Shown here: positions 11,570 to 57,850 of the stretch, in pieces
How positions within the stretch are numbered: position 1 is the stretch's first letter
Layout of the letters: each line of letters begins with the position of its first letter
Origin: a virus
Length of the DNA stretch: 64,000 nucleotides
Strand: one strand, 5' to 3'
Virus record (IMG/VR): IMGVR_UViG_3300011116_000225
Span: 5,408-69,407 of that record
Program-made: the position numbers and the translations under genes
The notes under the pieces: generated by a model
What the model saw: only the letters and a program-made list of their open reading frames with translations
What the model was told of the DNA's origin: nothing
The model's database searches: none

Positions 11570-12802
11570 ATGATGGCGACAGAGGCATACACAGGAAACC
11601 CGAACATCGCAAGACAGGGTGCCAGAGCGCGTCAGATCGCCCAGGCACGCAATGTTTCAGACATTGCTGACCCGCGCACCTACGGGTTCATGCAGGGCCT
11701 TCTAGGCTCCACGCCTGACGAGTTGGGTTACAGCATATTCGATGACCCAGAGACAAGACGAGCTGCCCAGCAAGCTGCGGAAGTTGGCCTTGTTGGCGGT
11801 GGTCTGCTGCAAGCGATACCAGTCATTGGCCCAGCGTTGAAGGGTTATGGTCGCCTGGCTGCTGGTCAGGTCAACCGGGCCATGATGGGTGAAGGTGGTT
11901 TGCTGGGTCCGATCACGCCGCAGCCAATGTATGTTGTGCCGCCTGGGAAGAGTATTAATCCACTTAATCTGAACAAAGGAATTTACAAACCAGAGTTAAC
12001 GATGGAGGAAATGCTCAAGGTCAAAGACATTCCTACTGTTGATCGAGTGAAGCAATCAATTGATTTGGTTGGCGAAAAAGAATTTGAAAAGATGGTTAAT
12101 GCTCAGTATAAAAAATATAAACCATCAGACCAAGATCAAGAGGCAATGCTTGTTGAGTCTGTAACTCTTGACATTCTTGGAAGAGCGCAAAGATCCCCCT
12201 ACCCCCAACAGGCAGCATTAGATCTTGCGCAGCAACGGGCCGCACTGCCTGTCAGTGAAGGTGGTTTAGGTTTGCCAGCGAACAATACGCCTGAGATGAG
12301 AGCGCAGGCGATGGGGTTTGATACCCCTGTTTATCATGCAACTGATGTTAATTTCACTTCAATAAATCCATCTGTCAAAGGAAAATATGGCGCTGGTGTT
12401 TATACAGCTACAACACCAAAATATGCGGAAATATATGCACAAGGTGAAAACGCAAGAACTCTTCCTTTAATGGCAAGAGGAAAATTAGCAAGTGATGATG
12501 AAAGAATTGCAATTGCAGATCAGATGCTTGAACAATATCAAACCAAAGAAGGTATGGATGTTCCTCTTTGGAAAAAAATGACAAAAGAAGAATTAGCTAA
12601 TAGAGGATATACAGGCGTAAGTATTGGAAAAGAAAGATTAATGTTCAACCCATCTGATTTACGCTCACGTTTTGCCGCATTTGACCCATTCCGCAAAGAT
12701 GTGGCAACTGCAACGGCAATGGGGGTTGCACTGCCAGATCTGCTGGCAGCAGAACCTACGCCGCAACCTCAATCATCTGGGTTGCTATATCCATTCCCAT
12801 AA
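11570..12802 (+). CDS. Putative ejected effector with C-terminal ADP-ribosyltransferase-like (ART-PolyVal type) domain
   Basis: VYHAT...F...GKYGAGVYTAT...AEIYA...GYTGV...ERLMFNP pattern; AT-richer 3' half; absent from copy 2. Confidence 0.55.
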   Translation: MMATEAYTGNPNIARQGARARQIAQARNVSDIADPRTYGFMQGLLGSTPDELGYSIFDDPETRRAAQQAAEVGLVGGGLLQAIPVIGPALKGYGRLAAGQVNRAMMGEGGLLGPITPQPMYVVPPGKSINPLNLNKGIYKPELTMEEMLKVKDIPTVDRVKQSIDLVGEKEFEKMVNAQYKKYKPSDQDQEAMLVESVTLDILGRAQRSPYPQQAALDLAQQRAALPVSEGGLGLPANNTPEMRAQAMGFDTPVYHATDVNFTSINPSVKGKYGAGVYTATTPKYAEIYAQGENARTLPLMARGKLASDDERIAIADQMLEQYQTKEGMDVPLWKKMTKEELANRGYTGVSIGKERLMFNPSDLRSRFAAFDPFRKDVATATAMGVALPDLLAAEPTPQPQSSGLLYPFP

Positions 12803-15738: not shown

Positions 15739-15966
15739 TCAGCGAGGCTTTGCACGCGCAATGACGGCACTGTCGATCCAGTCACCCATCTGAATGGGCA
15801 TCCACCCATTCTTTTGCTGACGACCACGGGTGAGGTTTGCCAGATGGCAATAGGTGCTGCCATTGCGCTCCGCGCCGATGCCGACAATGCGCCATAACTC
15901 ACCGGCATACACAATGATGCAGTCAACCTTGCTGCGGTCACCGATGGTTGCTTGTACTTCTGCCAT
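15739..15966 (-). CDS. First gene of leftward early operon, hypothetical
   Basis: AGGAG RBS; replaced by an unrelated gene in copy 2. Confidence 0.7.
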   Translation of the reverse strand: MAEVQATIGDRSKVDCIIVYAGELWRIVGIGAERNGSTYCHLANLTRGRQQKNGWMPIQMGDWIDSAVIARAKPR

Positions 15967-15999
15967 TTCGTTTCTCCTGGTTGGGTTGTTGATATGCGG

Positions 16000-16030
16000 A
16001 TCATACACCGATTGACTATCTCATCAAATC
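16000..16030 (-). promoter_or_regulatory. Leftward sigma70-type promoter with overlapping operator-like element
   Basis: Minus strand TTGATG-N16-TATGAT; copy 2 has TTGACA-N16-TATGAT. Confidence 0.6.
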
Positions 16031-16071
16031 CCCTACGCTACACTCAACTATTCCACCCGTACAATCAACCC

Positions 16072-16165
16072 GGCGGGTTCATCCTCCCGCTGATTGCACC
16101 GGGCACTCCACCCGATGCGGTTGCCACTTAGGGGGCTGGGCAGCGTTGTCTGGCCCCCATTTTTT
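16072..16165 (+). ncRNA. Candidate three-hairpin small RNA ending in an intrinsic terminator
   Basis: TACAAT -10 at 16060; stems GGCGGG/CCCGCT, ATTGCA-CGGG/CCCG-TGCGGT and GGGGGC../..GCCCCC plus T-tract; loops invariant in copy 2. Confidence 0.55.
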
Positions 16166-16172
16166 CATGGTC

Positions 16173-16202
16173 TTGCACAAGTTGTCAATTTGGGGTTAAC
16201 AT
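16173..16202 (+). promoter_or_regulatory. Rightward promoter, probably giving a leaderless HTH mRNA
   Basis: TTGCAC-N18-TAACAT ends 7 nt before ATG 16210, no SD; conserved in copy 2. Confidence 0.45.
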
Positions 16203-16209
16203 CCAAGAC

Positions 16210-16446
16210 ATGAAAACAACCGACAACCCCATCAAAGACGTGCTGGTCAAGGCCAGCGCTGCTGGCTACACAATGGCAGACGTGTGCCGGGTCGCGCAGA
16301 TCGACCAGTCCCAGGTCAGTCGCTGGCTCAGTGGCCGCACCAAGCCCCTTTATGACAGCGTCAAGCGCCTCAATGACGCCACTGATGCCTTGGTAGCGGC
16401 CAGGCTTGAAGTGCTCAACAAGGCCATGGATGAGGCGCTCAAATGA
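16210..16446 (+). CDS. XRE/Cro-like HTH transcriptional regulator
   Basis: TMADVCRVAQIDQSQVSRWLSG HTH. Confidence 0.85.
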   Translation: MKTTDNPIKDVLVKASAAGYTMADVCRVAQIDQSQVSRWLSGRTKPLYDSVKRLNDATDALVAARLEVLNKAMDEALK

Positions 16447-19702: not shown

Positions 19703-19719
19703 GACGTAACGAATTAAGG

Positions 19720-19747
19720 GCCGGGGCTTTGTCCCCGGCTTTTTTTT
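19720..19747 (+). terminator. Rho-independent terminator
   Basis: GCCGGGG-CTTTGT-CCCCGGC followed by T8; identical in copy 2. Confidence 0.85.
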
Positions 19748-19752
19748 CCCTC

Positions 19753-19866
19753 ATGGAATCAAAAGAAGAATTCTGGCAACTGCTGGTGCTCATGTTGGCA
19801 CGGCGGGTGTACGAATTAGAAGAACGGCTCAAGAAATTGGAGAAGAAATGCAAGCCGAACAAATAG
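19753..19866 (+). CDS. 37-aa coiled-coil peptide
   Basis: MESKEEFWQLLVLMLARRVYELE...; conserved at 53509. Confidence 0.55.
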   Translation: MESKEEFWQLLVLMLARRVYELEERLKKLEKKCKPNK

Positions 19867-21941
19867 CAAAGGCGCTTGGCAACGCAAAGAGAGTTGGCAA
19901 AGGATGGTTGGCAAGTTGCCCATTGCCAGGGCATGGACAGGGCCATGGAGACAAGAACCCGAGTCTTTCCATCAGTGATGGAGATGACGGCAAACCCCTC
20001 TTTAAGTGCCACTCTGGTTGCGATCAGCATGAAGTGTTTGCGGCCATCAGGGATTACGGGCTGCTGCCAGACATTGAGATACGTGACCCTTTGGCATCGA
20101 TCAAGCCACTGCCTGCGCTCCAGGCACCAGTCCTTGAGCATGAGTGGGTTTATGTTGACGAGTATGGGGACCCGCTGTTTGTCAAGCAGAGATTTAAGAC
20201 CAGCACGGCCAAGGGTAAAGATTACAAGCTCATGCGCTGCGTCAAACAGCCAGATGGAACCCATGCCAGGTTTCCAGGGTTCAAAGACACGCGCCTGGTG
20301 CCCTATCGATTCCCCGAACTGCTGAACGCAAAGGCTGCGGGAAGGACCATCTTTTTGACCGAAGGCGAGAAGGCAGCCGATGCCTTGGTATCAATTGGAG
20401 TCATTGCCACAAGTGCTCATGCGGGATCAGGGTCATGGCCCGAGGAGATCACCCAGTATTTTGCTGGGGCAGTTGTCATCATGGTCCCAGACAACGACCT
20501 GGCGGGTTGGAAGTACGCCCACAAGGTGGCCGCAGCCTTGGTCCCGGTGGTGAAGTCCTTGAGGATCTTGGACCTGCCAGTTGAAGCGGCAACAGATGAT
20601 GCCTGGGAATGGGTCAACGTCTTGGGCGGCACCAGGCAAGAACTGGTCGAATTGGCAAAGGTCAGCCCATTGGTGACCTCGCAAGATGATGTAACGATCC
20701 CGGCAAGATTGGTGGCGGCACCGCAAAGCTCAGTTGCAGAACCATTTGCCGAATCTGCCGAACAGGTTGCAGAACCCAAAACCCAGGAACCTTACAAACC
20801 CTTCAAGATCGAGTCCTGGCAGTCAGTCAAGGATGAACCCGTCAACTGGTTAATCGAAGGCGTGATCCCTGAGAAGTCTTTTGTGGCCCTGTATGGGCCG
20901 CCAGCGTCATTCAAGTCATTCATTGCCATGGACATTGCCGAGTGCATCGCATCAGGCCGTGACTGGTTGGGAAACAAGATCAACGGCACCGGGCCAGTCC
21001 TATACATTGCCGGCGAAGGTCATGGCGGTATCGGTGCCAGGATTGCAGCCATCAAGCAGCACCACAACACGCCAGATGATGCACAGGTGTACGTTGTGCG
21101 CTCCCAGATCAACCTCAGATCAAGCGTTGATGATTTCTTGGCGCTCATTTCGGCCATCGATGAGCTGGTCAAGGAACTGGGTGTCGACCTGCGCATGATC
21201 ATCATCGATACCCTGGCCAGAGCATTTGGCGGGGGAAATGAGAACTCGAGTGATGACATGGGTGCCTTCATCCAGGCCACGGGAAAGATCCAAAACAGGT
21301 ACAGGTGCTCACTTATGCTGCTGCACCACGCTGGCAAGGACACGACAAAAGGACTGCGTGGGCACTCCAGTCTGCTGGGTGCCGTGGACACGCAAATGGA
21401 GATCATGCGGTTTCCAGAAACCACCAAAGGCTTGATCCTCATGTCCAAGCAAAAGGACGGTGAGGACGGTCAGAGGTACGGGTTTGAGGCCATCACGGTG
21501 GACATTGACAGGTCAGATCTGGGCCTGGAGAACGGCTCCAGCCTGGTCATTGAGGCGTCAGAGGTTGGCGAGATGAGGTCAGCAGACGCAGAAAATAAGC
21601 CAGAAAAAGGCAAAGCAATTGGCGCAAAACAGAAGATTGCTGAGAAGTCACTAATTGTTGCAATTAAAACCTTTGGCTCCATTATGGACACGCCAGAGGG
21701 ACGCAAAAACACCATCAGTTTGGAGCAGTGGAAGGCCGAATTCACGGCCATGATCGGGTCAGATGTGACCTCAAACCAGCTCGCAACGTACTGGGGAAGG
21801 GCCAAGGATCACGTCATAAAGAGTGGATTCGGGACCATCAGGAACAGCAGCGTTTGGGCAAACCGTAAGGACGTGACCACTGGTTTTGAGGCAGAGGCGC
21901 TGCTGAAAGCCGGGAAACTGGCTGCGTTGGTTGATGAATGA
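19848..21941 (+). CDS. Primase-helicase (Zn-finger, TOPRIM, RepA/AAA_25 helicase)
   Basis: CP...H...CHSGC, TEGEKAAD, PDND..G, GPPASFKS Walker A, IIDTL Walker B, HHAGKD, RGHSSL. Confidence 0.9.
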   Translation: MQAEQIAKALGNAKRVGKGWLASCPLPGHGQGHGDKNPSLSISDGDDGKPLFKCHSGCDQHEVFAAIRDYGLLPDIEIRDPLASIKPLPALQAPVLEHEWVYVDEYGDPLFVKQRFKTSTAKGKDYKLMRCVKQPDGTHARFPGFKDTRLVPYRFPELLNAKAAGRTIFLTEGEKAADALVSIGVIATSAHAGSGSWPEEITQYFAGAVVIMVPDNDLAGWKYAHKVAAALVPVVKSLRILDLPVEAATDDAWEWVNVLGGTRQELVELAKVSPLVTSQDDVTIPARLVAAPQSSVAEPFAESAEQVAEPKTQEPYKPFKIESWQSVKDEPVNWLIEGVIPEKSFVALYGPPASFKSFIAMDIAECIASGRDWLGNKINGTGPVLYIAGEGHGGIGARIAAIKQHHNTPDDAQVYVVRSQINLRSSVDDFLALISAIDELVKELGVDLRMIIIDTLARAFGGGNENSSDDMGAFIQATGKIQNRYRCSLMLLHHAGKDTTKGLRGHSSLLGAVDTQMEIMRFPETTKGLILMSKQKDGEDGQRYGFEAITVDIDRSDLGLENGSSLVIEASEVGEMRSADAENKPEKGKAIGAKQKIAEKSLIVAIKTFGSIMDTPEGRKNTISLEQWKAEFTAMIGSDVTSNQLATYWGRAKDHVIKSGFGTIRNSSVWANRKDVTTGFEAEALLKAGKLAALVDE

Positions 21942-22100: not shown

Positions 22101-22135
22101 AGCAAATTGATGATTAATGGATTGGAGGTAAAAGG

Positions 22136-22834
22136 ATGAGCGCAAAACAGGGTCAGGTGGGTCAGGGCAAAAGTCGGATGCCAGGTCGTGGGGTCAAGCC
22201 AGATTTCCCGGCGACCGATTTTGAGATCAGGCAGGCATCATGGTTGGCTGAAATTGAGCGCGTTAAGGTGGATCAGGATCGAAAATGGGGTACTGATAGA
22301 TTGTGTACTTTAGTTGATCTAGGGTTTCGGGAGAAATTCTGGCAGCAACAGCAAAGGGTTTGGCAGGCTTGTCAGGCCAGGGACAGTGAAAGGCTTGAGA
22401 AGTCAGCAGCAGGCATGGTCAGGGCGTATCAGGCGCTCGAGGCCTGGGCAGTCCAGCACGCAGTGCCTGTGCGGCCTGCCGTGGGCGCGGTTGAGCACGT
22501 TGGCAAAGATGGGAAACTGATGGTGGTGGTCGCAACCAAGCAAGATGCGGTCTGGTATCGCGAGAACCGTCCAGACGTTGAAGGCCAGCACGTTTGGTCC
22601 ATGGAGGAGATCGAGCTGCTGATTGAGGCTGAGATCAACCAGGCAGTGGTCGAGGCAAAGATCAGGTACGCTAGGTTTGACCCGGTGGTGGTCAATGTGG
22701 AGAAGTTGGGGGGTGAGACGGGCTTTGATGATTTTGTCAATGACCTGGATCTGTCAGCGCCAACGAAGGCACCTAAAATGTTTGACAGCAAAACAGCGGA
22801 GAAATTCAAGCATGGACAAAATCAGGCGATTTAA
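22136..22834 (+). CDS. Conserved hypothetical protein upstream of terS
   Basis: GGAGG RBS; conserved at 57152. Confidence 0.8.
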   Translation: MSAKQGQVGQGKSRMPGRGVKPDFPATDFEIRQASWLAEIERVKVDQDRKWGTDRLCTLVDLGFREKFWQQQQRVWQACQARDSERLEKSAAGMVRAYQALEAWAVQHAVPVRPAVGAVEHVGKDGKLMVVVATKQDAVWYRENRPDVEGQHVWSMEEIELLIEAEINQAVVEAKIRYARFDPVVVNVEKLGGETGFDDFVNDLDLSAPTKAPKMFDSKTAEKFKHGQNQAI

Positions 22835-46745: not shown

Positions 46746-48134
46746 ATGATGGCAACTGGTTTACTGGATTACCTCGAGGCAATTGGTGAGACGGGTGCAA
46801 CTCTGGGTAGCGGTGCCGCTGCCACCATGGCCGGGATTCCTTACGGCATCTTGCAAAACATCAGGTCCGGCAAGTACGGCACAAAGGAAGGCGTCAAGCT
46901 GGCCGACAAGGCCACTCAAGACTTCATCAAGCAGTACACCTATGCACCTCGCGGCCAGATGGCCCAGAACGCGCTGCAAAGCGTTGCTGGCCTGCTTGAA
47001 TCCACCAAGCTGCCACCAGTATTGCCAGAGGCCGGGTTGCTGGCCGCGATCCCCAGGGCAGCGTATGCATCTCAACTTGAGCGTGCCGGTATGGCGGCAG
47101 AGCGTGCCATGGAGCCAGTCGCGGCCAACGTGATGGCGCGGGGCGGTTTGCCTGCTCAGTTGTTGACTGATTTGACTCAAGGCACGCGCAGCCAAATGCT
47201 GCCCGGCAACAATGTATTTGATCCAAGGTTTGACGCCAGGAAATTGGAGCAAGAACGACTCAGGAATTTAAAAACAAGCGTTGTTCCAATTTACGACTAC
47301 ACCGTCCCAAAGATTAACCTCGCGGATTATCAAGACTATCCATTCATCACCAGCATGTCAGATCGAACCAGGACTGGTTTGTTGACTGACATTGATGGCG
47401 TCTCATTGAATCGACCTGTTTACTTGCAGGGTGGACAACCTTACATGTATGAAAACCCTGGACAGGTTTGGGCATCAGGCACAAAGCCAGCCAGTGACAT
47501 TTACAAGATGGCGAACATGCTCAAAGAGACAACAGGCAAAGACCCGTTGTATATCCCTTGGGTTATGTCCCCATCAGGCAGTGACTTTGCCAACATGACG
47601 GGCGAAACCATGCTCTCTTATGCGCAGACCGTCATGGGCAAAGACACGAAAAAGGGTCTTGATAGGCAAATCAAAAACAGATTTATTCCAGACTGGCTTG
47701 GCCTTGATGACCCGGCAAGCATTGAGCAATTCAGAAATCTGTCTGACCGCAAACGCAAGTCAATGAAGAAGACATTGCTTGATAAGGAATTCAGAAATGA
47801 AGGCGGCTTGAGCATTGGCGAGGCCAGACTGGCGATTGCAGATCCCAATCAATTGAATTTGCCTGATGCAAGCATTTTGAATGTCGGACAAATATTCCCA
47901 GATCAACCATTGATCATGCAATCAGGTCACGCTGCATACCCATTGGGCGTGCCTGGTCAGGGACTTGGCGCAGTGGAAGGCGGCCAAAACATATTTGATC
48001 TGCTGCTGATGCACCGGCTCAATCGGGGCATCATTGACCCATCCAACCCAAGCAGAAAAGATATTCGCACGCTCGAGATGAAACCCTACGCTGGTTTGCT
48101 TGATGCCGATTTGCTCAAGTCTTTGGGCAATTGA
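46746..48134 (+). CDS. Putative ejected protein of unknown function (replaces the ART-like gene)
   Basis: Same slot and MMAT start as 11570 but unrelated sequence; multiple GLL motifs. Confidence 0.65.
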   Translation: MMATGLLDYLEAIGETGATLGSGAAATMAGIPYGILQNIRSGKYGTKEGVKLADKATQDFIKQYTYAPRGQMAQNALQSVAGLLESTKLPPVLPEAGLLAAIPRAAYASQLERAGMAAERAMEPVAANVMARGGLPAQLLTDLTQGTRSQMLPGNNVFDPRFDARKLEQERLRNLKTSVVPIYDYTVPKINLADYQDYPFITSMSDRTRTGLLTDIDGVSLNRPVYLQGGQPYMYENPGQVWASGTKPASDIYKMANMLKETTGKDPLYIPWVMSPSGSDFANMTGETMLSYAQTVMGKDTKKGLDRQIKNRFIPDWLGLDDPASIEQFRNLSDRKRKSMKKTLLDKEFRNEGGLSIGEARLAIADPNQLNLPDASILNVGQIFPDQPLIMQSGHAAYPLGVPGQGLGAVEGGQNIFDLLLMHRLNRGIIDPSNPSRKDIRTLEMKPYAGLLDADLLKSLGN

Positions 48135-50586: not shown

Positions 50587-50615
50587 ATCATACATCGTTT
50601 GACCATCTTGTCAAA
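50587..50615 (-). promoter_or_regulatory. Leftward sigma70 promoter with operator palindrome
   Basis: TTGACA-N16-TATGAT on the minus strand; TTTGAC-N6-GTCAAA inverted repeat over the -35. Confidence 0.7.
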
Positions 50616-50658
50616 TCCCCTACGCATTAGTCAACTATTAACCCCATACAATGACCCT

Positions 50659-50754
50659 GGCGGGTTCATCCTCCCGCTGATTGCACCGGGCACTCCACCC
50701 GGGCGCAGTTGCCATTTAGGGGGCCGGTCATCACTGTCTGGCCCCCATTTTTTT
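50659..50754 (+). ncRNA. Candidate three-hairpin sRNA (copy 2)
   Basis: Homolog of 16072-16165; TACAAT at 50647; stem changes largely keep pairing. Confidence 0.55.
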
Positions 50755-50797
50755 GACTATTTGCACAAGTTGTCAAATTGGGGTTAACATCCAAGCC

Positions 50798-51034
50798 ATG
50801 AAAACAACCAACAACCCCATCAAAGACGTTATGGCCAAGGCCAGTGCCGCAGGCTACTCCATGGCCGATGTCTGCCGTGTCGCAGAGATTGACCAGAGTC
50901 AAGCCAGCCGGTGGCTCAGTGGCCGCACCAAGCCACTCTATGCCTCTGTGGTGCGCCTCAATCAGGTGGTCGATGCCATGGTAGCGGCACGCCTTCAAGT
51001 GCTCAACAAGGCCATGGACGAGGCGCTCAAATGA
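50798..51034 (+). CDS. XRE/Cro-like HTH regulator (copy 2)
   Basis: Homolog of 16210-16446. Confidence 0.85.
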   Translation: MKTTNNPIKDVMAKASAAGYSMADVCRVAEIDQSQASRWLSGRTKPLYASVVRLNQVVDAMVAARLQVLNKAMDEALK

Positions 51035-57115: not shown

Positions 57116-57151
57116 TTATTGATTTGATGATTAATGGATTGGAGGCAAAGG

Positions 57152-57850
57152 ATGAACGCAAAGCAGGGTCAAGTGGGTCAGGTCAAAAGTCGCATACCCA
57201 GCCGTGGTGTTAAGCCAGATTTCCCGGCAACAGATTTTGAGATCAGGCAGGCATCATGGCTGGCTGAGATTGATCGCATTAAGGTGGATCAGGATCGGAA
57301 ATGGGGGACTGATAGATTGTGTACTTTAGTTGATCCAGCGTTTCGGGAGAAATTCTGGCAGCAACAGCAGCGGGTCTGGTCTGCTTGTCAGGCCAGGGAC
57401 AGCGAAAAGCTCGAGAAGTCGGCAGCCGGGATGGTCAGGGCTTATCAGGCGCTCGAGGCTTGGGCAGTGGGTGTCGGTGTGTCACAACGGCCAACGGTTG
57501 GCGCGGTGGAGCATGTTGGGAAAGATGGGAAGCTGATGGTTGTGGTCGCCACCAAGCAAGATGCAACCTGGTACCGCGAAAACCGGCCAGACGTTACCGG
57601 GCAACACGTCTGGTGCATGGAGGAGATTGAGCTGCTGATTGAGGCTGAGATCAACCAGGCAGTGGTCGAGGCCAAGATCAGGTACGCTAAGTACGACCCG
57701 GTGGTGGTCAAGGTAGAGAAGCTGGGTGGTGAAACGGGCTTTGATGACTTTGTCAATGACCTGGACACTTCAGCACCATCCAAGGCACCTAAAATGTTCG
57801 ATAGCAAAACAGCGGAGAAATTTAAGCATGGACATAATCAATCGATTTAA
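57152..57850 (+). CDS. Conserved hypothetical protein upstream of terS (copy 2)
   Basis: Homolog of 22136-22834. Confidence 0.8.
   Translation: MNAKQGQVGQVKSRIPSRGVKPDFPATDFEIRQASWLAEIDRIKVDQDRKWGTDRLCTLVDPAFREKFWQQQQRVWSACQARDSEKLEKSAAGMVRAYQALEAWAVGVGVSQRPTVGAVEHVGKDGKLMVVVATKQDATWYRENRPDVTGQHVWCMEEIELLIEAEINQAVVEAKIRYAKYDPVVVKVEKLGGETGFDDFVNDLDTSAPSKAPKMFDSKTAEKFKHGHNQSI

What the first reader, a model, noticed from the sequence alone, without database searches (positions are those of the whole stretch)
16060..16165. Candidate regulatory sRNA in the divergent control region with two invariant anti-Shine-Dalgarno loops and a predicted target
Seen: between the two divergent promoters lies a TACAAT-preceded ~95-nt unit of two hairpins plus a terminator. 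Loops UUCAUCCU and CACUCCA are identical in both copies, while stems vary mostly compatibly (e.g. U-G to U-A, U-G to C-G). GUUCAUCCU is complementary to the start of the gene upstream of terS (AGGAUGAAC in copy 2 at ~57149; AGGAUGAGC with one G-U in copy 1 at ~22133). CUCCA complements the UGGAG of that gene's RBS, in the correct antiparallel order. CACUCC also matches GGAGUG RBSs of early genes. Established: P4 CI and P1 c4 RNAs regulate via paired loops. Inference: an RNA-based switch in a phage lacking a CI-type repressor. The matches are short and could be chance.
Basis: partly seen in the sequence, partly recalled or inferred. Interest (0 to 1): 0.74.

Follow-up and report, generated by a model that had tools for sequence, protein, structure and literature searches.

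The report
Small structured RNA gene in phage control region

Summary
The structure is real. At 16060-16165, and again at 50647-50754, the + strand carries a -10 box, two hairpins, a U-rich linker and a strong intrinsic terminator. It lies between a leftward promoter and a rightward promoter whose Cro-like HTH gene appears leaderless. Related phage contigs keep the unit at the same place. Stems covary: 97.5% of cells pair in 24 distinct close relatives and 93.8% in 48 one-hairpin relatives. G-U pairs and the T-run fix the strand. The -10 box varies only as TAnnnT. Rfam 15 has no match.

The "invariant anti-SD loops" do not hold. Hairpin 1's loop is UUCAUCCU in 15 of 25 close relatives and CCAACA in 8, and many relatives have a single hairpin. 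Only C(A/G)GUUGCC before the terminator is constant. Loops are pyrimidine-rich, and CUCC occurs in 52 of 86.

The predicted target before terS fails. A 9-nt match to some start region arises in 27-35% of shuffled RNAs, and the site neither persists nor co-varies with the loop. No conserved phage target was found.

Best reading: a new family of phage small RNAs acting through its loops, target unknown. The main rival is a cis antitermination or late-promoter module.

The parts
16000..16027 (-). Leftward early promoter P_L: -35 TTGATG (16027-16022), 16-nt spacer, -10 TATGAT (16005-16000). It drives the first leftward gene (15739-15966, 75 aa). It overlaps a 16-bp operator-like palindrome, TTGAC-N6-xTCAA, at 16012-16027.
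   Evidence: Consensus scan. The hexamers are kept in 25 distinct relatives. The palindrome was read from the sequence; its function is inferred.
16043..16065 (+). Promoter of the small RNA (P_s): -10 TACAAT at 16060-16065, with a conserved upstream block (C/G)TCAACTATT at 16043-16052. No -35 hexamer is recognisable.
   Evidence: TACAAT is invariant in 25 of 25 close relatives while its flanks vary. Across 123 family entries the hexamer is TACAAT 74, TAAACT 18, TAAAAT 12, TAGAAT 11, all TAnnnT. The block plus hexamer occurs only at the RNA loci in the window. The start site, about 16070-16072, is inferred.
16071..16092 (+). Hairpin 1: a 7-bp stem (CGGCGGG/CCCGCUG, with one G-U) and the loop UUCAUCCU (16078-16085).
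   Evidence: 98.8% of cells pair. The G-C pair becomes A-U in 8 of 24 distinct sequences. RNAalifold predicts the same helix.
16093..16121 (+). Hairpin 2: outer helix AUUGC/GCRGU, inner helix CGGG/CCCG, loop CACUCCA (16104-16110).
   Evidence: 97.2% of cells pair, and 3 pairs show changes on both sides. L027 carries a wholly different 10-bp stem. The alternative closing helix CAACC/GGUUG is rejected, with 50% paired.
16118..16130 (+). Constant element CGGUUGCC (CAGUUGCC in most relatives), followed by a short U-rich linker.
   Evidence: C(A/G)GTTGCC is present in 25 of 25 distinct close relatives and in 30 of 30 distinct one-hairpin relatives found through the neighbouring RuvC-like gene with model R1. 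Its role is unknown.
16131..16165 (+). Intrinsic terminator t1: a 12-bp G+C-rich stem, a 4-nt loop, then A and T6.
   Evidence: Terminator scan. 96.9% of cells pair, with compensatory and G-U changes. A T-run follows only on the + strand.
16173..16212 (+). Rightward early promoter P_R (TTGCAC 16173-16178, 18-nt spacer, TAACAT 16197-16202) and the ATG (16210) of the 78-aa HTH gene, 7 nt after the -10 box with no Shine-Dalgarno. This implies a leaderless mRNA.
   Evidence: Sequence. GGTTAACAT plus a variable 7 nt plus ATG is kept in all 25 close relatives. A TAnnnT-N6-8-ATG arrangement lies downstream in 123 of 135 distinct family entries. HTH_3 match at 8.4e-6. Leaderless translation is inferred.
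50647..50754 (+). Second copy of the RNA unit in the second, about 90% identical, phage genome of the record. It has TACAAT 50647-50652, loops at 50665-50672 and 50691-50697, terminator stem 50719-50746 and T-run 50748-50754.
19716..19751 (+). Second strong + strand terminator t2, between the early genes and the primase-helicase gene. It is context for the antitermination rival, and is not shown to belong to the unit.
   Evidence: Terminator scan, 11 pairs plus T8. A counterpart lies 2.7-3 kb downstream of the RNA in 11 of 11 related genomes.
22121..22141 (+). AGGAUGAGC at the start of the 232-aa gene before terS). The copy 2 counterpart is at 57138-57157. It is listed because it was tested and not supported.
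   Evidence: present. (at chance level, not conserved, no co-variation).

Best explanation
This is a gene for a small non-coding RNA, about 95 nt here and about 60 nt in one-hairpin relatives.

Shown or well supported:
- It is transcribed rightward from its own -10-only promoter (TACAAT).
- It ends at a strong intrinsic terminator just upstream of the rightward early promoter of a phage of about 35 kb whose head genes resemble those of SU10.

Inferred:
- The RNA starts at or next to the first hairpin, so it has no single-stranded 5' seed. It therefore most likely acts in trans through its pyrimidine-rich hairpin loops, which would pair with purine-rich stretches such as ribosome-binding regions.
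- The constant C(A/G)GUUGCC, the U-rich linker and the U-tailed terminator would serve stability or chaperone binding.
- The target is not identified and may be a host mRNA.
- The promoter may depend on the Cro-like HTH protein bound at the neighbouring TTGAC/GTCAA sites.

I put about 0.9 on the RNA gene and its fold being real, and about 0.4-0.45 on the trans, loop-pairing mechanism.
For: (1) Anatomy. The -10 box, two hairpins, linker and 12-bp terminator with T6 all lie on the + strand. The + strand fold has z -3.41, against -1.75 for the minus strand.

(2) Covariation in the close group. 24 distinct sequences give 97.5% of 672 cells paired, 5 pairs and 16 cells with changes on both sides, 0 of 500 shuffles as high, and slid controls at 30-51% paired. 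RNAalifold finds the same three helices on its own.

(3) Strand. Frequent G-U pairs (for example columns 15-34 in 23 of 24 and 37-64 in 24 of 24) would be A-C mismatches on the other strand.

(4) Independent group. 48 distinct one-hairpin relatives give 93.8% of 808 cells paired, 7 pairs and 69 cells with changes on both sides, and 0 of 500 shuffles as high.

(5) Promoter. The hexamer changes only at positions 3-5 (TACAAT 74, TAAACT 18, TAAAAT 12, TAGAAT 11 of 123), while T1, A2 and T6 stay.

(6) Fixed place. Model R1 hits upstream of the RuvC-like gene in 44 of 52 further loci. A motif scan gives at least 119 viral contigs. 123 of 135 distinct entries have the leaderless-type promoter plus ATG downstream.

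(7) Loops. They are 77% pyrimidine against 50% in stems, and CUCC lies in or at a loop in 52 of 86 distinct RNAs.

(8) Single fold. The minimum-energy structure takes 0.61 and 0.41 of the ensemble, so there is no obvious competing antiterminator fold.
Against: - No transcript ends were seen. The four RNA-library runs are contigs only and may hold DNA, and some contigs run across the terminator and across the promoter gap.
- No conserved target among phage start regions. 599 regions in 11 genomes fall into 29 gene clusters present in 7 or more genomes, and the best median is -1.6 kcal/mol.
- Own-versus-permuted tests on 110 loci show no co-evolving pairing with the leftward mRNA start (-4.44 against -4.78 +/- 0.24) or the rightward mRNA start (-5.50 against -5.55 +/- 0.22).
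- The longest matches lie in conserved coding sequence and do not change when the loop changes. They are the 12-nt AGGATGAACCCG inside the primase-helicase gene and the 10-nt TGGAGTGCCC.
- No -35 hexamer is recognisable for the promoter.
- The one constant RNA element, CAGUUGCC, has no explained role.
- A strong second terminator downstream fits a cis antitermination reading as well.
Confidence: 0.42

Rival explanations
1. Cis-acting late or antitermination module. RNA polymerase that starts at TACAAT would become terminator-resistant. This could happen through the nascent hairpins themselves, as with HK022 put RNA, or through a factor loaded at the promoter, as with lambda Q at P_R'-tR'. The polymerase would then read through t1 and the conserved second terminator t2 to express the primase-helicase and late genes. 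The about 95-nt RNA would be the terminated by-product, like lambda 6S RNA.
For: - Promoter, then hairpins, then a strong terminator stand at the head of a gene array of about 31 kb, all on the + strand.
- A second strong terminator separates the early genes from the primase-helicase gene in 11 of 11 related genomes.
- No sigma-70-like promoter was found by the scan between t2 and the next genes.
- The promoter lacks a -35 hexamer but has a conserved block between about -30 and -18, where a loading factor could bind.
- No trans target was found.
- RNA-library contigs bridge t1, although they may be DNA.
Against: - A well-conserved promoter, P_R, with a leaderless start lies between t1 and the first gene, so the early genes do not need read-through.
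- The number of hairpins varies (one or two) and loop sequences differ widely even between close relatives. That is unexpected for an RNA that must dock on a conserved polymerase surface.
- No competing fold was seen.
- The put features are recalled from memory, not tested against a model.
Confidence: 0.2
2. Protein-binding or decoy RNA. An abundant early RNA would use its U-rich linker, U-tailed terminator, constant CAGUUGCC and pyrimidine-rich loops to bind or titrate a host or phage RNA-binding protein, such as an Hfq or ProQ-type chaperone, ribosomal protein S1 or a nuclease. It would not pair with a specific mRNA.
For: - The only invariant part is a short single-stranded motif next to the terminator, not a loop.
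- Loops are kept in composition (77% pyrimidine) more than in sequence.
- No base-pairing target was found.
- A review describes the phage VP882 RNA VpdS as competing with host sRNAs for Hfq (PMC12197685, section 2, read).
Against: - There is no known protein-binding motif, and no GGA for CsrA on this strand.
- Nothing in the tools can test binding.
- Loop variety between near-identical phages looks more like changing specificity than a fixed protein site.
Confidence: 0.15
3. A P4 CI / P1 c4-like immunity RNA would use its two loops to pair with the Shine-Dalgarno sequence and start codon of the gene upstream of terS and block its translation.
For: - The 9-nt (copy 2) and 8-nt plus G-U (copy 1) complementarity, together with UGGAG in the right antiparallel order, is present.
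- CUCC-type loops recur in the family.
Against: - Matches of this length arise in 27-35% of shuffled RNAs.
- G005 has the same hairpin 1 loop but its gene start reads GAAAUGAAAC.
- G003 keeps AGAAUGAAC although its loop is CCAACA. G001, G002 and G004 also lack pairing.
The four one-hairpin genomes scored -3.9 to -8.6.
- UGGAG precedes 5-6 genes per genome.
- No match to Rfam C4.
- No integrase or other lysogeny gene was found.
Confidence: 0.04
4. Insulator only. The terminator would merely stop stray rightward transcription from entering P_R, with the promoter-like hexamer and hairpins incidental.
For: The terminator is strong and sits just upstream of P_R.
Against: - The extra hairpins covary.
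- The hexamer keeps T1, A2 and T6 through four variants.
- Neither feature is needed for an insulator.
Confidence: 0.05

Closest known systems
P1/P7 c4 RNA and P4 CI RNA (Rfam C4 antisense RNA family)
   Same: Small, structured phage RNAs that act through exposed loops. They are encoded in a control region in place of, or beside, a protein repressor. Loop differences set specificity (features recalled from memory).
   Different: - No match to the C4 model or any Rfam family, even at E up to 10.
- This RNA has its own -10 box and terminator, rather than being cut out of a longer transcript.
- No matching target boxes were found in the same operon.
- The phage shows no lysogeny genes.
Lambda P_R'-tR' unit (6S RNA) and HK022 put RNA
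   Same: A promoter followed closely by a structured short RNA and a strong terminator at the head of a long rightward gene array. put consists of two stem-loops just behind an early promoter (recalled from memory).
   Different: - Here a separate promoter with a leaderless gene lies between the terminator and the genes.
- Many relatives have one hairpin only.
- No Q-like or N-like protein was recognised.
- Cis action is untested.
Lambda OOP, P22 sar and lambda aQ antisense RNAs
   Same: Short phage transcripts with their own promoter and terminator in the regulatory region (PMC12197685, section 2).
   Different: Those RNAs overlap their target gene on the opposite strand. This RNA overlaps no gene. 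The only minus-strand promoter-like site across it is not kept in the one-hairpin relatives.
Hfq-dependent phage sRNAs (lambda PreS, VP882 VpdS)
   Same: Trans-acting phage sRNAs with a U-tailed terminator that act on host and phage mRNAs (PMC12197685, section 2).
   Different: No sequence relation was tested or expected. Those have defined seeds and targets. Here the 5' end is a hairpin and no target is known.

Membership tests
Rfam C4 antisense RNA (P1 c4 / P4 CI) | Scores against the family covariance model | tested here: not met
   No Rfam 15 family reaches its gathering score in the whole window. None reaches E up to 10 in 15950-16250.
Rfam C4 antisense RNA (P1 c4 / P4 CI) | Loops complementary to boxes in a transcript of the same phage that they repress | tested here: not met
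   There is no conserved or co-varying site in phage start regions or in the neighbouring mRNA starts. The search used simple hybridisation plus accessibility, so weak or interrupted pairings could be missed.
Rfam C4 antisense RNA (P1 c4 / P4 CI) | Matured from a longer transcript by RNase P | not testable with these tools
   In this window hairpin 2 is followed by G-CCA, but relatives read GCCU or GCCC. No processing data are available.
Independently transcribed bacterial/phage sRNA gene | Own promoter | tested here: met
   The -10 hexamer is invariant in 25 of 25 close relatives and varies only as TAnnnT in the wider family. No -35 hexamer is seen, and no start site was mapped.
Independently transcribed bacterial/phage sRNA gene | Intrinsic terminator on the same strand | tested here: met
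   A 12-bp stem plus T6, with 96.9% and 97.5% of cells paired in the two groups.
Independently transcribed bacterial/phage sRNA gene | Conserved secondary structure with compensatory changes | tested here: met
Independently transcribed bacterial/phage sRNA gene | Discrete transcript of the predicted size | tested here: inconclusive
   Only contigs of RNA libraries could be laid. One 151-nt contig of depth 2 ends at 16164 in the U-tract, while others bridge the terminator. DNA carry-over cannot be excluded.
HK022 put-type antitermination RNA | Two stem-loops directly behind an early promoter (feature recalled from memory) | tested here: inconclusive
   There are two hairpins in this window and in three other subgroups, but one hairpin in 48 or more distinct relatives.
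HK022 put-type antitermination RNA | Acts in cis to suppress downstream terminators | not testable with these tools
   A conserved downstream terminator t2 exists. Read-through cannot be measured here.
Transcription attenuator / riboswitch leader | Alternative antiterminator fold competing with the terminator | tested here: not met
   A single dominant fold takes 0.61 and 0.41 of the ensemble. No conserved pairing partner for the terminator's 5' arm was noticed on reading the family sequences; this was not scored.

The most novel reading that the evidence does not exclude
The unit would be an RNA-based early-to-late switch in a phage that lacks N- or Q-type proteins. The Cro-like HTH protein would shut off the two early promoters and turn on the -35-less TACAAT promoter. 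The nascent hairpins plus CAGUUGCC would make that polymerase resistant to t1 and to the conserved terminator t2, so only these transcripts reach the primase-helicase and late genes. The leaderless HTH gene would go untranslated on the long transcript. This would be a new, widespread family of factor-independent antitermination RNAs, beside HK022 put and the Bacillus EAR element.
Probability: 0.12. Interest if true: 0.85.

Novelty: new member of a known kind. Interest (0 to 1): 0.5.

Why it matters
Phage small RNAs are known mostly from a few cultured coliphages and vibriophages. This one is an uncatalogued, well-covarying RNA family with no Rfam match. It is present in well over a hundred freshwater viral contigs.

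It always sits at the heart of the early control region, in the place where lambdoid phages keep a repressor gene. It lies next to a gene that appears to be translated without a leader. It therefore gives a defined, small, testable element for asking how an abundant group of uncultivated phages times its gene expression or manipulates its host.

The family alignment is good enough to seed a curated RNA model.

The negative result also matters. Short anti-Shine-Dalgarno matches to a single phage gene are expected by chance, and comparison with relatives removes them.

Tried and rejected
1. Closing helix CAACC/GGUUG, from the single-sequence fold. Only 50% of cells pair in relatives, so it was rejected in favour of three consecutive hairpins.

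2. Minus-strand RNA, or a 5' leader of the leftward operon from the TTGACA-N18-AAAAAT site. It was rejected because G-U pairs become A-C, the fold is weaker, there is no T-run, and the site is absent in one-hairpin relatives.

3. blastn of the region against 50,697 phage records gave no match. TerL by tblastn has its best hit in an uncultivated spring virus at 69.5%. A scan of genome contigs with the RuvC-like protein gave only 3 MAG contigs at 54-75% identity. The host remains unknown.

4. RNA evidence. Four metatranscriptome runs are held as contigs only. No part of this can show starts, ends or strand, so it gives no verdict.

5. Target searches:
- Exact 8-mers.
- Hybridisation plus accessibility over 599 start regions.
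- Seed matches to the constant motif. Of 488 sites of 8 nt or more, 29 lie in start regions, which is little enrichment.
- Loop-centred matches of 9 nt or more.

6. The best recurrent hit is AUGGCAACUG at the start of the last tail gene. It ranks in the top five in 6 of 7 close genomes. But copy 1 changes on both sides without compensation. ATGGCAAC is also a common gene start: 7 on the + strand against 0.98 expected.

7. UGGCAACUGC, about 25 nt after t2, is complementary to the constant motif in 6 of 7 close genomes. It is absent in G004 and in the one-hairpin group, so it was judged unproven.

8. sRNA against its own t2 region in 11 genomes: own -4.5 against permuted -6.7 +/- 1.4. The method is unstable there because the G+C-rich terminator arms dominate, so it gives no support.

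9. P_s-like upstream block elsewhere in the window, as a sign of a class of late promoters: none.

10. tRNA- or tmRNA-like element: ARAGORN finds none.

11. Earlier findings of this scan: nothing on record.

12. Literature. The review PMC12197685 (outline and section 2 read) lists no RNA in this position. PMC4496710 (passages only) says nothing on put. Other papers were seen as search listings only. No supplements were opened. The searches named here do not prove that the family is unpublished.
Full report
**What the window is.** The window lies in a 69,407-base IMG/VR virus record. It holds two related phage genomes head to tail with a period of 34,587 bases. The RNA element therefore occurs twice, at 16060-16165 and 50647-50754. 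The two intergenic regions are 90% identical.

**Gene content.** The rightward array starts with a 78-aa HTH_3 (Cro/CI-type) protein and continues through:
- a RuvC-like resolvase;
- a PAPS-reductase-like protein;
- a PD-(D/E)XK exonuclease;
- a primase-helicase;
- small and large terminase;
- SU10-type portal, capsid and adaptor proteins, then tail genes.

A short leftward arm holds only small ORFs of unknown function. No integrase or long CI-type repressor was found among 50 ORFs of copy 1. The left arms of 11 related genomes hold only ORFs of 192 aa or less. No cultured relative and no host were found.

**The observation.** The 243-bp gap between the first leftward gene (ATG at 15966) and the HTH gene (ATG at 16210) contains, in order:
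- a leftward sigma-70-like promoter (TTGATG-N16-TATGAT, 16027-16000);
- TACAAT on the + strand (16060-16065);
- hairpin 1 (16071-16092, loop UUCAUCCU);
- hairpin 2 (16093-16121, loop CACUCCA);
- CGGUUGCC and a U-rich linker (16118-16130);
- a 12-bp terminator with T6 (16131-16165);
- TTGCAC-N18-TAACAT, with the ATG 7 nt after the -10 box and no Shine-Dalgarno, which implies a leaderless mRNA.

The + strand folds much better than shuffles (z -3.41 and -3.52; 1 of 200 shuffles each). The minus strand does not (z -1.75; 11 of 200).

**Relatives and structure: the close group.** I used the two neighbouring proteins as anchors and fetched 104 loci from viral contigs.
- blastn with the 109-nt element hit 53 of 106 loci held, duplicates of the same contig included. 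This gave 25 distinct intergenic regions.
- On their alignment the three-hairpin model pairs 97.5% of 672 cells.
- 5 pairs and 16 cells show changes on both sides. None of 500 column shuffles reaches these values, and partners slid by 1-3 columns pair in only 30-51% of cells.
- RNAalifold predicts the same helices unaided.
- The closing helix of the single-sequence fold fails, with 50% paired.
- Clear events are the G-C to A-U switch in hairpin 1 in 8 sequences and a wholly different 10-bp hairpin 2 in L027. L027 also has a G-C to A-U switch in the terminator.
- Abundant G-U pairs and the T-run fix the RNA on the + strand.

**Relatives and structure: the wider family.** A covariance model built from this alignment hit upstream of the RuvC-like gene in 44 of 52 further loci. 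Some of the other 8 lack upstream sequence. These relatives carry a shorter version: a -10 box, one hairpin, CAGUUGCC, a U-rich linker and a terminator.
- 135 distinct entries came from all loci held, and 123 have a TAnnnT-N6-8-ATG arrangement downstream.
- 48 distinct one-hairpin sequences pair in 93.8% of 808 cells, with 7 pairs and 69 cells changed on both sides and 0 of 500 shuffles as high.
- Further two-hairpin subgroups have unrelated stems, for example GACAGGG/CCCUGUC and GGAGGUGG/CCCGCCUCC.

**The promoter.** TACAAT is invariant in the 25 close relatives although its flanks vary. In the wider family it is replaced by TAAACT (18), TAAAAT (12) or TAGAAT (11), against 74 TACAAT. T1, A2 and T6, the positions that matter most in a -10 element, always stay.
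- Of the remaining 8 entries, 5 had no hexamer picked. In 3 my script picked an upstream hexamer although TACAAT lies further down.
- This behaviour fits a promoter, not an RNA seed.
- No -35 hexamer is seen. Instead a block (C/G)TCAA(C/G)TATT sits between about -30 and -18. It is found only at the RNA loci in the window.
- It resembles a half-site of the 16-bp TTGAC-N6-GTCAA palindromes that overlap the -35 boxes of the two early promoters. That the HTH protein binds these sites and helps this promoter is my inference.
- The first hairpin starts 4-7 nt after the hexamer, so the RNA has essentially no single-stranded 5' end.

**What is and is not conserved in the RNA.** Loops are not invariant.
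- In the 25 close relatives the hairpin 1 loop is UUCAUCCU (15), CCAACA (8), CCUCAUCCU (1) or UUCAUCUU (1).
- The hairpin 2 loop is CACUCCA(A) (16), AACUCCA(A/G) (8) or AUUC (1).
- The constant piece is C(A/G)GUUGCC, present in 25 of 25 and 30 of 30 protein-anchored distinct sequences. The 30 were found with a model that contains the motif.
- Loops are 77% pyrimidine against 50% in stems, and CUCC lies in or at a loop in 52 of 86 distinct RNAs.

**The predicted target.** The complementarities exist but fail three tests.
- Chance. A perfect complement of 9 nt or more to some start region appears for 177 of 500 (copy 1) and 136 of 500 (copy 2) shuffled RNA bodies. UGGAG precedes 5 of 59 and 6 of 46 predicted genes.
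- Conservation. G005 has the same hairpin 1 loop, but the gene start reads GAAAUGAAAC.
- Co-variation. G001-G003 have the CCAACA loop. G003's gene start (AGAAUGAAC) is almost that of copy 2, and nothing there pairs with CCAACA.

**Wider target search.** I compared 11 complete or near-complete genomes: the two copies, G001-G005 and G006-G009.
- Hybridisation plus sRNA accessibility was computed over 599 start regions. No gene cluster present in 7 or more genomes has a median better than -1.6 kcal/mol (29 clusters).
- With a wider search the one recurrent hit is AUGGCAACUG at the start of the last tail gene, complementary to the constant motif. It ranks in the top five in 6 of 7 close genomes. 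Copy 1 has changes on both sides that weaken the pairing instead of compensating. ATGGCAAC is a common gene start here, with 7 against 0.98 expected.
- A 12-nt match inside the primase-helicase gene and a 10-nt match elsewhere lie in conserved codons and stay the same whatever the loop.
- For 110 distinct loci, pairing of each RNA with its own leftward or rightward mRNA start is no better than with those of other loci.
- The target is therefore unknown. It may be a host RNA, or there may be no base-pairing target at all.

**Expression.** Six RNA-library runs hold parts of the region, and four were laid. All are contigs, which cannot show strand, starts or ends and may include DNA. I draw no conclusion from them.

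**How it most likely works.**
- Shown: a conserved, covarying, + strand structured unit with promoter-like and terminator signals at a fixed place in the early control region.
- Inferred: it is released as a discrete RNA of about 95 nt.
- Most likely (about 0.4-0.45): it acts in trans through its pyrimidine-rich loops, in the manner of loop-driven antisense RNAs. The U-rich linker and U-tailed terminator would give stability or chaperone binding. Expression may be coupled to the Cro-like protein.
- Main rival (about 0.2): a cis module in which polymerases starting at TACAAT become terminator-resistant and read through t1 and the conserved terminator t2 (19716-19751; present in 11 of 11 genomes). 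This would be analogous to lambda P_R'-tR'/Q or HK022 put (features recalled from memory). The separate P_R promoter, the varying number of hairpins and the variable loops speak against it.
- Further possibilities: a protein-decoy role (about 0.15) and a mere insulator (about 0.05) remain possible.

**Comparison with known systems and novelty.** It works like a promoter-to-terminator phage sRNA gene.
- It is not a member of the C4/CI family, and has no match to any Rfam 15 family.
- Unlike OOP, sar or aQ, it overlaps no gene.
- A 2025 review of phage sRNAs (PMC12197685, outline and section 2 read) lists VpdS, PreS, LPR2, 6S, 24B_1, PAK_P4 antisense RNAs, sar, OOP and aQ. None sits between divergent early promoters ahead of a leaderless regulator gene.
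- My searches do not prove that the family is unpublished.
- I rate it a new member of a known kind: a new, widespread phage sRNA family with solid structural support and unknown function.

Noticed in passing
window 1-64000 (period 34,587; RNA copies at 16060 and 50647): The record is a head-to-tail pair of two phage genomes that are about 90% identical in the control region. Their first leftward genes differ (75 aa against 86 aa, unrelated). This is probably two strains joined in assembly, or a concatemer, and it shows mosaic exchange right at the promoter boundary.
   Followed up: partly
window 16173-16212 and 50762-50800: The Cro-like HTH gene has its ATG 7 nt after the -10 box TAACAT and has no Shine-Dalgarno. 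The same spacing recurs in 123 of 135 distinct family entries, with other -10 variants. This suggests conserved leaderless translation of the first early gene. The RuvC-like gene overlaps its stop codon (ATGA).
   Followed up: partly
window 19716-19866: A strong second terminator (11 bp plus T8) lies after the early genes, and a counterpart is present in 11 of 11 relatives. In the close group it is followed by a 37-aa ORF (MESKEEFWQLLVLML...) that overlaps the primase-helicase start. How transcription passes this point is unexplained.
   Followed up: partly
window 19774-19783: UGGCAACUGC, a 10-nt complement of the RNA's constant GCAGUUGCCA, lies about 25 nt after the second terminator in 6 of 7 close genomes. 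Copy 1 has one G-U. It is absent in G004 and in the one-hairpin group.
   Followed up: partly
window 20830-20841: AGGATGAACCCG inside the primase-helicase gene is a perfect 12-nt complement of the hairpin 1 5' arm plus loop. It is kept (10-12 nt) in all 7 close genomes, whatever the hairpin 1 loop type.
   Followed up: yes
window 16012-16027, 16173-16188; 50599-50614: 16-bp operator-like palindromes of the form TTGAC-N6-GTCAA (perfect in copy 2) overlap the -35 boxes of both early promoters. A lone GTCAAC half-site sits upstream of the RNA's -10 box. These are likely binding sites of the HTH protein, but that is not tested.
   Followed up: no
whole window, + strand: GGCAAC is over-represented on the coding strand: 41 on the + strand and 22 on the minus strand, against 15.6 expected per strand. 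ATGGCAAC occurs 7 times on the + strand against about 1 expected, and at least five of these coincide with listed ORF starts.
   Followed up: partly
window 11570-12802: The last tail-region protein (410 aa) gives a weak, sub-threshold match to an ADP-ribosyltransferase domain of polyvalent proteins (PF18760, E 9.5e-4, below the curated cut-off). Its counterpart in copy 2 (46746-48134, 462 aa) shares only the first residues.
   Followed up: no
L140, L150, L211, L146 (viral contigs): A few pattern hits carry CAGTTGCC plus a terminator but lack the leaderless promoter context. They may be chance matches or remote relatives in other phage types.
   Followed up: no
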